Source of the DNA: a virus
Taxonomy: Duplodnaviria > Heunggongvirae > Uroviricota > Caudoviricetes
Virus record (IMG/VR): IMGVR_UViG_2548876857_000001
Location: 1 to 8,451 of that record
DNA length: 8,451 nt
Reading direction: 5' to 3' (one strand)
Part shown: one piece after another, positions 2,036 to 2,310 of the stretch
How positions within the stretch are numbered: position 1 is the stretch's first letter
How the letters are laid out: every line of letters begins with the position of its first letter
Made by a program: the position numbers and the translations under genes
Notes under the pieces: model-generated
Told to the model about the DNA's origin: nothing
The model's database searches: none
The model's input: the letters and a program-made list of their open reading frames with translations, nothing else

Positions 2036-2065
2036 TTGACGCGATGATTTATCCGGGGCTATATT
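2036..2065 (+). promoter_or_regulatory. Candidate sigma70 promoter immediately downstream of ninE
   Basis: -35 TTGACG (2036-2041), 18-nt spacer, -10 TATATT (2060-2065). Near-consensus hexamers, seen in sequence. Confidence 0.5.
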
Positions 2066-2071
2066 CCCAGC

Positions 2072-2150
2072 ACGCCAGCAAAATCTGGCGTCGGGATTGG
2101 CGTCCCGGATAGAGACCGCGACAGACACACGCCGCGAGCGTGTTTTTTTA
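2072..2150 (+). ncRNA. Candidate small RNA or attenuator-like leader (three hairpins ending in an intrinsic terminator)
   Basis: Predicted start about 2072. Hairpin CGCCAG-CAAAAT-CTGGCG (2073-2090), hairpin CGGGA-TTGGCG-TCCCG (2092-2107), then terminator-like hairpin ACACGC-CGCGA-GCGTGT (2127-2143) followed by a 7-T run (2143-2149). No ORF with an RBS in the interval. Confidence 0.4.
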
Positions 2151-2310
2151 TTGTCGAATGCACGCGCACATCTGAATTATGGTGGGCTGTGTGGGGGCGG
2201 AGAGATCCGCGCCGGTCGGTTTCCCGGTTACGCCAACCCTGCGCAGTTCACCACCAGACGATTGGCGTCGTCGGTGGTGAGTTATTTAGAAACCACTCGA
2301 GGGCGTCATT

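What the first reader, a model, noticed from the sequence alone, without database searches (positions are those of the whole stretch)
2036..2310. Promoter-to-terminator structured RNA with a thrice-repeated TGGCGTC motif upstream of the ORF6N antirepressor-like gene
Directly after ninE there is a near-consensus promoter (TTGACG, 18 nt, TATATT), then about 80 nt forming three hairpins, the last followed by seven T residues. No plausible ORF lies in this interval. Two hairpins share the loop TTGGCG with different but compensatory stems (CGGGA/TCCCG at 2092-2107 and GACGA/TCGTC at 2257-2272), and TGGCGTC occurs three times (2086, 2098, 2264). The second hairpin extends to about 12 bp and sits about 30 nt upstream of the ORF6N start codon. 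This fits either a stand-alone prophage sRNA or an attenuator/antitermination-type leader controlling the downstream cassette. Two of the copies are direct repeats 12 bp apart, which could instead mark a DNA-binding site. I do not recognise it as a described lambdoid element.
Basis: partly seen in the sequence, partly recalled or inferred. Interest (0 to 1): 0.75.

Follow-up and report, generated by a model that had tools for sequence, protein, structure and literature searches.

The report
Known IsrK/C4 antisense switch for antirepressor
The region is a real and well-conserved RNA control cassette, but an already described one: the phage P1-type "c4 antisense RNA" switch (called IsrK in Salmonella prophage Gifsy-1) that keeps a prophage antirepressor gene silent until induction.

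Summary
In detail: promoter, three hairpins, a seven-T terminator and the repeated TGGCGTC motif are all present. The third copy starts at 2263, not 2264.

Rfam places three curated families here, each above its gathering score:
- isrK at 2072-2148
- c4-a1b1 at 2059-2111
- C4 antisense RNA at 2175-2258

TTGGCGT is the 'a' target site. It lies in the IsrK hairpin loop (a1) and in the hairpin before the antirepressor ribosome-binding site (a2). Both copies are complementary to ACGCCAA in C4.

A second pair of sites, GAGACCG (b1) and GAAACC (b2), matches the C4 loop GGTTTC. Across P1, Gifsy-1 and ten other phages, both site pairs change together with C4.

The layout matches the annotated P1 immI operon and the Gifsy-1 isrK locus. 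The published Gifsy-1 compensatory mutations fall on the a1:a' helix.

Most likely mechanism, by homology: C4 blocks antirepressor translation, and the short IsrK RNA competes for C4 and relieves the block.

Relatives of the C4 segment occur in about 43% of complete E. coli genomes. Verdict: already known, low interest.

The parts
2036..2065 (+). Sigma-70 promoter: -35 TTGACG at 2036-2041, 18-nt spacer, -10 TATATT at 2060-2065. Inferred transcription start at A2072.
   Evidence: 10 of 12 matches. The -35 and -10 columns are conserved in alignment A1 and align with P1's annotated P1c4 (P51b) promoter and with Gifsy-1 PisrK. The start site is inferred from the Gifsy-1 numbering in PMC4825925.
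2072..2150 (+). IsrK small RNA, which is the a1/b1 leader of the cassette: hairpin 1 (2072-2091), hairpin 2 (2092-2107), linker, intrinsic terminator.
   Evidence: Rfam isrK RF01394, 77.3 bits (gathering 50), full length. Rfam c4-a1b1 RF03163 at 2059-2111, 50.7 bits (gathering 46.7). Fold. Hairpin 1 has 6 of 7 pairs with changes on both sides.
2097..2103 (+). a1 site TTGGCGT, in the loop and 3' side of IsrK hairpin 2. Complementary to a' in C4.
   Evidence: The a1:a' helix is 92.9% paired with 4 of 7 pairs changed on both sides. Gifsy-1 compensatory mutants G28A/C162U and G31A/C159U map onto this helix.
2112..2118 (+). b1 site GAGACCG, in the single-stranded linker. Complementary to the C4 loop CGGTTTC: 7 bp including one G-U.
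   Evidence: Read from the sequence. Cognate versus non-cognate test for b' against the upstream region: 0 of 20000 permutations reach the cognate sum.
2127..2150 (+). Intrinsic terminator of IsrK: 6-bp G+C stem at 2127-2143, then seven T.
   Evidence: The T-run is invariant in all 12 aligned sequences.
2175..2258 (+). C4 antisense RNA, the homolog of P1 c4 and of Salmonella STnc1160/orf45'. It has a long closing stem and two internal hairpins.
   Evidence: Rfam C4 RF01695, 64.6 bits (gathering 45), full length. MFE -44.1 kcal/mol, z = -4.3. All three helices are 100% paired across 12 sequences, with 12 pairs changed on both sides.
2216..2223 (+). b' : the 8-nt loop TCGGTTTC of C4 hairpin 2.
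   Evidence: Unpaired in the MFE and centroid structures. This loop differs in all 11 distinct cassettes compared and matches its own b1 and b2 each time.
2229..2236 (+). a' : the single-stranded junction TACGCCAA in C4. ACGCCAA at 2230-2236 pairs with a1 or a2.
2248..2280 (+). a2 hairpin: 13 bp with A2256 bulged and loop TTGGCG at 2262-2267. Its 5' arm is the 3' strand of the C4 closing stem, so the two folds exclude each other.
   Evidence: 86.8% paired, 8 of 13 pairs changed on both sides.
2262..2268 (+). a2 site TTGGCGT.
   Evidence: The a':a2 helix is 94% paired with 4 of 7 pairs changed on both sides.
2289..2294 (+). b2 site GAAACC, 5 nt upstream of the Shine-Dalgarno sequence. Pairs with GGTTTC in the C4 loop (6 bp).
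   Evidence: Read from the sequence. In homologs b2 is 7-12 bp and in several it runs into the Shine-Dalgarno sequence. Permutation test.
2299..2313 (+). Ribosome-binding region of the antirepressor gene: SD GAGGG at 2299-2303, a fourth GGCGTC at 2302-2307, ATG at 2311-2313.
   Evidence: The SD is predicted mostly paired (unpaired probability 0.20-0.25) with a2 and its 3' flank (2268-2272) once C4 is folded or excised; the helix as a whole joins 2263-2272 to 2299-2308.
2179..2280 (+). 33-aa leader ORF starting at the invariant ATG at the 5' end of C4. Positional homolog of Gifsy-1 orf45, but truncated.
   Evidence: In Gifsy-1 the ORF is 45 aa and its stop overlaps the anrP ATG. Here the TGA at 2278-2280 lies 31 nt upstream of the ATG. 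Its length across homologs runs from 8 aa to in-frame fusion with the downstream gene.
2311..2991 (+). Regulated gene: 226-aa antirepressor with ORF6N and P22AR_C domains.
   Evidence: Pfam. The N-terminal 125 aa are 66% identical to Gifsy-1 AnrP/STM2616.
3008..3035 (+). Intrinsic terminator that closes the operon.
   Evidence: 9-bp stem, 5 G-C pairs, T-run.

Best explanation
This is a P1/P7 immI-type RNA immunity cassette, known in Salmonella Gifsy-1 as the isrK locus. Here it sits in the nin region of a lambdoid prophage, between ninE and an antirepressor gene.

Proposed sequence of events:
1. A sigma-70 promoter (2036-2065) starts transcription at about 2072.
2. Most transcripts stop at the intrinsic terminator and give the 77-nt IsrK RNA. 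IsrK displays the target-mimic sites a1 (TTGGCGT) and b1 (GAGACCG).
3. Read-through transcripts carry the C4 RNA (2175-2258), then the real operator sites a2 (TTGGCGT) and b2 (GAAACC) just before the antirepressor ribosome-binding site.
4. C4, probably excised from the precursor as in P1, uses its single-stranded a' (ACGCCAA) and its loop b' (GGTTTC) to bind a2 and b2. This keeps the antirepressor untranslated and stabilises lysogeny.
5. IsrK, in cis or in trans, pairs with the same a'/b' surface of C4. This relieves the block, so antirepressor is made and the prophage repressor is inactivated.

Shown here: the family memberships, the architecture, the complementarities and their covariation.

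Shown elsewhere on homologs: IsrK raises anrP translation about 140-fold, and the a1:a' pairing is confirmed by compensatory mutations (Gifsy-1). c4 represses icd/ant through a2/b2 (P1).

Inferred for this window: transcription, processing, the direction of regulation, and the function of the protein.
For: - Three Rfam families score above their gathering thresholds, in the expected order and on the expected strand.
- The same isrK plus C4 tandem is found in all 10 phage homologs fetched, in Gifsy-1, and in seven further genomic loci including two betaproteobacteria; two more loci (Escherichia sp. L082, Chromobacterium L027) show C4 alone.
- P1's own annotation gives the same order: promoter, a1, b1, c4, a2, b2, RBS, ant. 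P1's a1/b1 leader gives a sub-threshold isrK hit of 35.1 bits, E = 5e-6.
- The 'a' site covaries three ways, between a1, a' and a2. Among 13 cassettes there are 6 different 'a' sequences, each matched.
- In the pair counts, a1:a' is 92.9% paired and a':a2 is 94% paired. Each helix has 4 of 7 pairs changed on both sides. For each whole structure tested (these helices together with the IsrK and C4 stems), no shuffle in 500 reaches the observed pairing or covariation score, and the slid controls pair at 36-44%.
- The b' loop differs in all 11 distinct cassettes and is complementary to its own b1 and b2. At most 1 of 20000 permutations reaches the cognate score.
- The Gifsy-1 mutants G28A/C162U and G31A/C159U fall exactly on the a1:a' helix. 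The Gifsy-1 'a' site is identical to the one in this window.
- A stable processed RNA of about 80 nt, STnc1160, arises from the Gifsy-1 read-through transcript.
- The a1/b1 competition idea was already proposed for P1, as summarised in Weinberg 2010, Additional file 1.
- The downstream protein has antirepressor domains, and its N-terminal 125 residues are 66% identical to AnrP.
Against: - There are no expression data for this window.
- The b pairing here is the shortest in the set, 6-7 bp against 7-12 bp elsewhere.
- b2 lies 5 nt upstream of the SD rather than over it.
- The Gifsy-1 paper explains its data without a trans-acting C4 repressor. It invokes a switch between two folds of the long mRNA plus coupling through orf45.
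- In that paper, a1 mutations in cis raise basal anrP translation, which a pure decoy model does not predict.
- Constitutive STnc1160 made IsrK toxicity stronger, not weaker.
- The icd/orf45-type coupled leader ORF is not conserved here.
Confidence: 0.85

Rival explanations
1. Pure Gifsy-1 model. The long transcript folds into an inactive form in which IsrK sequence pairs in cis with the C4/orf45 region. Short IsrK in trans refolds it and exposes the leader-ORF RBS, and ribosomes translating the leader ORF turn on the antirepressor by coupling. C4 is never a free repressor, and a2/b2 have no role.
For: - Direct genetics and native gels on the Gifsy-1 homolog.
- In this window the SD is predicted to be sequestered by pairing with a2 and its 3' flank, within a helix joining 2263-2272 to 2299-2308. 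A ribosome on the 33-aa leader ORF (2179-2280) would melt that helix.
- A 41-aa GTG ORF (2189-2314) does end in ATGA over the ant start codon.
Against: - a2 and b2 covary with a' and b' across cassettes, which implies selection for C4:a2/b2 pairing.
- The leader ORF ranges from 8 aa to an in-frame fusion. In this window it stops 31 nt before the ATG.
- The predicted SD-sequestering helix is not conserved. VT2phi_272 has the same SD region but a different a2.
Confidence: 0.2
2. A stand-alone Hfq-binding prophage sRNA whose main job is to regulate host mRNAs in trans. The downstream similarity would then be incidental.
For: The unit has its own promoter and terminator and is catalogued in Rfam as 'isrK Hfq binding RNA'.
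Against: - It is always found immediately upstream of a C4 RNA.
- Its variable nucleotides track the cognate C4.
- No host target was sought here.
Confidence: 0.07
3. P4-type transcription attenuation. Pairing of the antisense RNA with the flanking sites causes premature termination before the antirepressor gene, rather than a translation block.
For: - The Gifsy-1 authors raise the P4 CI/seqA/seqC analogy.
- IsrK in trans raised transcript levels 8-fold in Gifsy-1.
- The a2 hairpin competes with the C4 closing stem, and in this window it is followed by GTTATTT.
- From memory: P1 c4 also causes Rho-dependent polarity on ant (Biere, Citron and Schuster 1992).
Against: - The sequence after the a2 hairpin has no conserved T-run across homologs.
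- The scan found no terminator between C4 and the ATG.
- The translational effect in Gifsy-1 (about 140-fold) far exceeds the transcriptional one (8-fold).
Confidence: 0.1
4. The TGGCGTC direct repeats are binding sites on DNA for a regulatory protein.
For: Two copies lie 12 bp apart, next to a promoter.
Against: - In homologs with another 'a' site (TTAGCAC, TTCGAAC, TTGGTCT, TCGCAG, TTGACAG) the first copy stays as the 3' arm of hairpin 1 or changes independently. The direct repeat therefore disappears.
- The motif changes together with its reverse complement 130 nt downstream, which is the signature of RNA pairing.
Confidence: 0.02

Closest known systems
Salmonella Gifsy-1 isrK locus (isrK - orf45/STnc1160 - anrP - isrJ; Hershko-Shalev et al. 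2016, PMC4825925)
   Same: - The same three Rfam families in the same order.
- Identical a1, a' and a2 sequences (TTGGCGT / ACGCCAA).
- The same promoter and terminator layout.
- The antirepressor N-terminal domain is 66% identical, with residues 1-27 matching exactly.
   Different: - Different b code: GGTTTC here, GGTGAT in Gifsy-1.
- b2 does not overlap the SD here.
- The leader ORF is 33 aa and stops 31 nt before the ATG, rather than 45 aa ending in ATGA.
- No isrJ match downstream; Rfam found none at E up to 10.
- The cassette lies between ninE and ant, upstream of Q, whereas in Gifsy-1 it lies just downstream of antQ.
- The antirepressor C-terminal domain differs; here it is P22AR_C.
Bacteriophage P1/P7 immI operon (P51 promoter - a1 b1 - c4 - a2 b2 - icd - ant; Citron & Schuster 1990)
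   Same: - Same order of parts, with similar spacing: a1 to b1 is 14 nt in P1 and 15 nt here; a2 to b2 is 29 and 27 nt.
- The C4 fold matches Rfam at 68.8 bits in P1 and 64.6 bits here.
- a' sits in the single-stranded junction and b' in the hairpin loop in both.
- The promoters align.
   Different: - Different a/b code: P1 uses TTGACAG and GTTAGTG.
- There is no icd gene between b2 and ant.
- The antirepressor is unrelated in sequence to P1 Ant1.
- No C1 operator is present.
- The host element is a lambdoid prophage, not a plasmid prophage.
- The terminator after b1 is much stronger here. P1 reaches only 35 bits against the isrK model.
Satellite phage P4 CI RNA with seqA and seqC
   Same: A processed antisense RNA flanked upstream and downstream by complementary sites in the same transcript. 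The Gifsy-1 authors drew this analogy.
   Different: P4 acts by premature transcription termination. No conserved terminator follows a2/b2 here.
Phage P22 sar RNA / ant
   Same: A small RNA that blocks translation of an antirepressor. This window's protein carries the P22 antirepressor C-terminal domain.
   Different: sar is a true cis-antisense transcript made from the opposite strand (review PMC12197685). Here every RNA comes from the same strand and pairs through short dispersed sites.

Membership tests
Rfam RF01394 isrK | Covariance-model score at or above the curated gathering score (50 bits), full-length match | tested here: met
   77.3 bits, model positions 1-77 of 77, window 2072-2148, + strand.
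Rfam RF03163 c4-a1b1 | Score at or above gathering (46.7 bits): two hairpins that include a1 and lie just 5' of b1 | tested here: met
   50.7 bits at 2059-2111. Hairpin 1 has 6 of 7 pairs changed on both sides.
Rfam RF01695 C4 antisense RNA | Score at or above gathering (45 bits), with the long closing stem and two internal hairpins | tested here: met
   64.6 bits at 2175-2258. The MFE structure matches the model, z = -4.3. The helices are 100% paired across 12 sequences.
P1-type immI cassette | a' and b' of C4 are exposed and complementary to a2/b2, which lie between C4 and the RBS of the downstream gene | tested here: met
   a':a2 is 7 bp and b':b2 is 6 bp. Covariation.
P1-type immI cassette | A second copy of the sites (a1, b1) upstream of C4 on the same strand | tested here: met
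   a1 at 2097-2103 and b1 at 2112-2118. Covariation.
P1-type immI cassette | All parts are co-transcribed from one upstream promoter, and C4 is cut out of the precursor (by RNase P in P1) | not testable with these tools
   Only a conserved promoter-like sequence and an invariant CCACC at the 3' end of C4 (2251-2255). RNase P processing is known for P1/P7 (Hartmann 1995, cited in PMC2190699).
P1-type immI cassette | The regulated gene encodes an antirepressor | tested here: met
   Pfam ORF6N and P22AR_C. The N-terminal 125 residues are 66% identical to Gifsy-1 AnrP, whose expression induces Gifsy-1. Antirepressor activity of this particular protein was not tested.
P1-type immI cassette | A small upstream ORF (icd) whose translation is the direct target and is coupled to ant | tested here: not met
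   No ORF lies between b2 and the ant ATG. ant starts 17 nt after b2.
Gifsy-1 isrK locus | orf45 starts at the 5' end of C4 and its stop overlaps the antirepressor ATG (AUGA), giving translational coupling | tested here: not met
   From the homologous ATG (2179) the ORF is 33 aa and stops at 2278-2280. A different-frame GTG ORF (2189-2314) does end in ATGA. Whether either ORF is translated is unknown.
Gifsy-1 isrK locus | isrJ sRNA downstream of the antirepressor, and antQ immediately upstream | tested here: not met
   No isrJ hit in the window at E up to 10, whereas Gifsy-1 gives 100 bits. Q lies downstream at 5313-5831.

The most novel reading that the evidence does not exclude
Two of the reviews read here treat IsrK without reference to C4, and the Gifsy-1 paper compares its locus with P4 CI rather than with P1 c4. 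Rfam does not place isrK in the C4 clan. The most novel reading not excluded has two parts.

(1) IsrK is simply the a1/b1 decoy arm of a P1-type C4 repressor. The Gifsy-1 'RNA acting on its own mRNA' mechanism should then be re-read to include C4:a2/b2 repression.

(2) The hypervariable code makes these cassettes individually addressable. There were 6 a' and 11 b' variants among the 13 cassettes compared. E. coli genomes carry up to six C4-region homologs. IsrK from one prophage could therefore derepress the antirepressor of another prophage only if they share a code. That would amount to an RNA-level cross-induction and heteroimmunity network among co-resident prophages.
Probability: 0.25. 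Interest if true: 0.45.

Novelty: already known. Interest (0 to 1): 0.15.

Why it matters
The finding adds no new biology. It does show that a common regulatory cassette is going unnoticed.
- Relatives of the C4 segment are found in 2307 of 5426 complete E. coli genomes, and none of the 20 listed matches has an RNA feature annotated under it.
- In some phage records the RNA is covered by 'hypothetical protein' CDS calls.

The cassette controls antirepressor synthesis, and so probably prophage induction, in Stx-type and other lambdoid prophages. Correct annotation therefore matters for anyone studying induction or Shiga-toxin phage biology.

The comparison also links two bodies of work that the papers read here treat separately: P1 c4 and Gifsy-1 IsrK.

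Tried and rejected
- Whole-molecule duplex energies for IsrK:C4 and leader:C4 did not differ from shuffles. Long G+C-rich RNAs always find some duplex, so I replaced this with site-level covariation and cognate versus non-cognate tests.
- The single genome-contig scan used too degenerate a pattern and returned mostly chance hits in G+C-rich genomes. Filtering with nhmmer and Rfam rescued 8 real loci.
- Protein-binding direct repeat: rejected, because the repeat is not conserved while the complementarity is.
- Intrinsic terminator after the a2 hairpin: rejected as a general feature, because there is no conserved T-run.
- A possible C4 target in front of the second antirepressor gene (3060): nothing convincing. 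ATTGGTG at 3034-3040 is the nearest match (read from the sequence), and the one-mismatch scan for TTGGCGT lists no hit there.
- Weak istR hit at 2909-3032 (17.6 bits, E = 6.5): noise.
- No direct repeats of 14 nt or more within 600 nt anywhere in the window.
- The original P1 papers were not held in the library (Lobocka 2004, Hartmann 1995, Riedel 1993). P1 mechanism details therefore rest on the GenBank annotation, on secondary citations and on memory where marked.
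Full report
**What is in the sequence**

The interval lies in the nin region of a lambdoid prophage.
- Upstream are Lar-like, NinB, Dam and NinE (1854-2030) genes.
- Downstream are a 226-aa ORF6N + P22AR_C antirepressor (2311-2991) and an intrinsic terminator (3008-3029).
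- Then come a second antirepressor (Rha + KilAC), YbcO, RusA, a phosphatase, Q, two tRNAs and the lysis genes.

- TTGACG-18-TATATT at 2036-2065 is the second-best promoter match in the window.
- 2072-2150 folds into three hairpins, the last followed by seven T.
- TGGCGTC occurs on the + strand at 2086, 2098 and 2263.
- Three copies of this 7-mer within 200 nt never arose in 3000 dinucleotide shuffles. However, some 7-mer does so in about half of shuffles, so the repeat alone is weak evidence.

**Identification**

A scan of the whole window against Rfam gave three matches above the curated gathering scores, all on the + strand and adjacent.

| Family | Window position | Bits | Gathering score |
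|---|---|---|---|
| isrK (RF01394) | 2072-2148 | 77.3 | 50 |
| c4-a1b1 (RF03163) | 2059-2111 | 50.7 | 46.7 |
| C4 antisense RNA (RF01695) | 2175-2258 | 64.6 | 45 |

Its MFE is -44.1 kcal/mol, z = -4.3, and none of 200 shuffles folds as well. In that fold an 8-nt hairpin loop TCGGTTTC (2216-2223) and an 8-nt junction TACGCCAA (2229-2236) stay unpaired.

**What the repeated motif means**

- ACGCCAA in the C4 junction is the exact complement of TTGGCGT.
- TTGGCGT occurs in the loop of IsrK hairpin 2 (2097-2103) and in the loop of the hairpin at 2248-2280 (2262-2268).
- The C4 loop GGTTTC is complementary to GAGACCG (2112-2118, one G-U pair) and to GAAACC (2289-2294). The latter lies 5 nt before the Shine-Dalgarno GAGGG (2299-2303) of the antirepressor gene.

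This is the P1 arrangement. The P1 GenBank record annotates, in this order: promoter P1c4, a1, b1, the c4 RNA, a2, b2, then the icd RBS, icd and ant. P1's a' sits in the same single-stranded junction and its b' in the same hairpin loop. The spacings are similar: a1 to b1 is 14 nt in P1 and 15 nt here, and a2 to b2 is 29 and 27 nt.

The first TGGCGTC (2086) is different. It is the 3' arm of IsrK hairpin 1. In relatives with another 'a' site it does not change with the others, so the apparent 12-bp direct repeat is specific to this sequence class.

**Comparative evidence**

A blastn search found 260 phage records with a match, mostly Stx-converting and other E. coli lambdoid phages. All ten diverse homologs that I fetched carry isrK and C4 in tandem. 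Gifsy-1 also does. Among the ten loci checked, eight show the tandem, from Kluyvera, Symbiopectobacterium and the betaproteobacteria Chitinilyticum and Laribacter among others; Escherichia sp. L082 and Chromobacterium L027 show C4 alone at gathering score.

In the alignment of the window, the ten phages and P1, with Gifsy-1 added by hand, there are six different 'a' sequences. In each case a1, a' and a2 changed together:

| a site | a' in C4 |
|---|---|
| TTGGCGT | ACGCCAA |
| TTAGCAC | GTGCTAA |
| TTCGAAC | GTTCGAA |
| TTGGTCT | AGACCAA |
| TCGCAG | CTGCGA |
| TTGACAG | CTGTCAA |

Pair counts on that alignment:

| Helix | Cells paired | Pairs changed on both sides |
|---|---|---|
| a1:a' | 92.9% | 4 of 7 |
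| a':a2 | 94% | 4 of 7 |
| C4 internal helices | 100% | 12 |
| IsrK hairpin 1 | 97.5% | 6 of 7 |
| a2 hairpin | 86.8% | 8 of 13 |

For each whole structure tested, no shuffle in 500 reached the observed pairing or covariation score, and the slid controls paired at only 36-44%.

The b' loop differs in all 11 distinct cassettes. Each one matches its own b1 and b2 by 6-12 bp, and in several cassettes b2 runs into the Shine-Dalgarno sequence. When C4s were reassigned to other cassettes, at most 1 of 20000 permutations reached the cognate score.

**Experimental anchor**

Hershko-Shalev et al. 2016 (PMC4825925) studied the Gifsy-1 homolog. Its a1, a' and a2 are identical to those in this window. Their findings:
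- The isrK promoter drives the downstream antirepressor gene anrP by terminator read-through.
- The long mRNA is not translated.
- IsrK supplied in trans raises anrP translation about 140-fold and induces the prophage.
- An RNA of about 80 nt (STnc1160) is processed from the read-through transcript.

Numbering from the Gifsy-1 start site, their compensatory pairs G28A/C162U and G31A/C159U fall exactly on the a1:a' helix.

The authors compare the system with P4 CI/seqA, not with P1 c4, and do not discuss a2/b2. For P1, the idea that a1/b1 compete with a2/b2 for c4 and so free the ant RBS goes back to Citron and Schuster 1990, as summarised in Weinberg 2010, Additional file 1.

**Most likely mechanism here**

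By homology, C4 binds a2/b2 and keeps the antirepressor untranslated. IsrK carries the mimic sites a1/b1, competes for C4 and relieves the block.

The conserved a2/b2 covariation argues that P1-type pairing is under selection in these lambdoid cassettes too.

Some Gifsy-1 data do not fit a simple decoy model. a1 mutations in cis raise basal expression. Co-expressing STnc1160 enhanced IsrK toxicity. The balance between trans repression by C4 and cis refolding therefore remains open.

**How this copy differs**

- The Gifsy-1 leader ORF, orf45, is 45 aa and its stop overlaps the anrP ATG. Here the same ATG (2179) gives 33 aa and stops 31 nt short of the ant ATG.
- Across homologs that ORF ranges from 8 aa to an in-frame fusion with the downstream gene. 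It is not a conserved protein.
- A 41-aa GTG ORF in another frame (2189-2314) does end in ATGA.
- Folding predicts that, once C4 is folded or removed, a helix forms between 2263-2272 (a2 and its 3' flank) and 2299-2308 (the SD and a fourth GGCGTC at 2302-2307), which masks the SD (unpaired probability 0.20-0.25). A ribosome on the 33-aa ORF would melt this helix. The helix is not conserved in VT2phi_272, so I treat it as a lead only.
- The b pairing is the shortest in the set.
- No isrJ follows the gene.
- Q lies downstream rather than immediately upstream.
- The antirepressor shares only its N-terminal domain with AnrP (66% identity over 125 aa) and nothing with P1 Ant1.

**Distribution and verdict**

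- Close copies of the whole interval occur in 743 of 5426 complete E. coli genomes.
- Relatives of the C4 segment occur in 2307 genomes, with up to six places per genome. None of the 20 listed matches has an RNA feature annotated under it.

The feature is real, functional by strong comparative evidence, and already described. It is an ordinary member of the IsrK/C4 family, with a known 'a' code and a b' loop seen in no other cassette compared (VT2phi_272 shares the GGTTTC core). Interest is low. The remaining value lies in annotation and in linking the P1 c4 and Gifsy-1 IsrK literatures.

Noticed in passing
window 5809-6050: A near-consensus promoter (TTGACA, 18 nt, CATAAT at 5809-5838, 11 of 12) lies at the 3' end of the Q gene (5313-5831). 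It is followed by tRNA-Asn(GTT) at 5895-5969 and tRNA-Thr(TGT) at 5975-6050, then holin and lysozyme genes. This is the pR' position where Stx phages carry stx, but no toxin gene is present. Phage P1 also has an adjacent tRNA-Asn/tRNA-Thr pair (L011 24349-24502).
   Followed up: no
window 2311-3788: Two different antirepressor-type genes lie in tandem: ORF6N + P22AR_C at 2311-2991 and Rha + KilAC at 3060-3788. A strong intrinsic terminator (3008-3029) separates them. Only the first has C4 target sites in front of it.
   Followed up: partly
window 2059-2148; L011 3218-3312; L132 34240-34329: Rfam families isrK (RF01394) and c4-a1b1 (RF03163) hit the same nucleotides in the window, in Gifsy-1 and in most homologs. 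P1's a1/b1 leader scores 35 bits against isrK. Yet isrK is not listed in clan CL00128 with C4 and c4-a1b1, so the two entries look redundant.
   Followed up: partly
window 2302-2307 with 2263-2269: A fourth partial motif copy, GGCGTC, sits right after the SD. GGCGUC is self-complementary as RNA when G-U pairs are allowed. Folding pairs a2 with it and masks the SD. The pairing is not conserved in VT2phi_272.
   Followed up: partly
L033 210-404 and 1036-1230; L097 3323-3410 and 3801-3888: Symbiopectobacterium carries two complete isrK + C4 modules about 830 nt apart on the same strand. A second locus, L097, has two C4 copies 480 nt apart.
   Followed up: no
L006 611-778; L008 264-1097; L010 383-1045; L005 640-927: Several GenBank phage records annotate 'hypothetical protein' CDSs that overlap the C4 RNA, and in L008 and L010 the isrK RNA as well. 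These are probably over-called ORFs. The listed RefSeq E. coli matches show no RNA feature at the element.
   Followed up: no
E. coli genome hits H65, H66: Some weaker C4-region matches in E. coli chromosomes lie under 'ash family protein' genes. These may be P4-like satellite elements with the related CI RNA.
   Followed up: no
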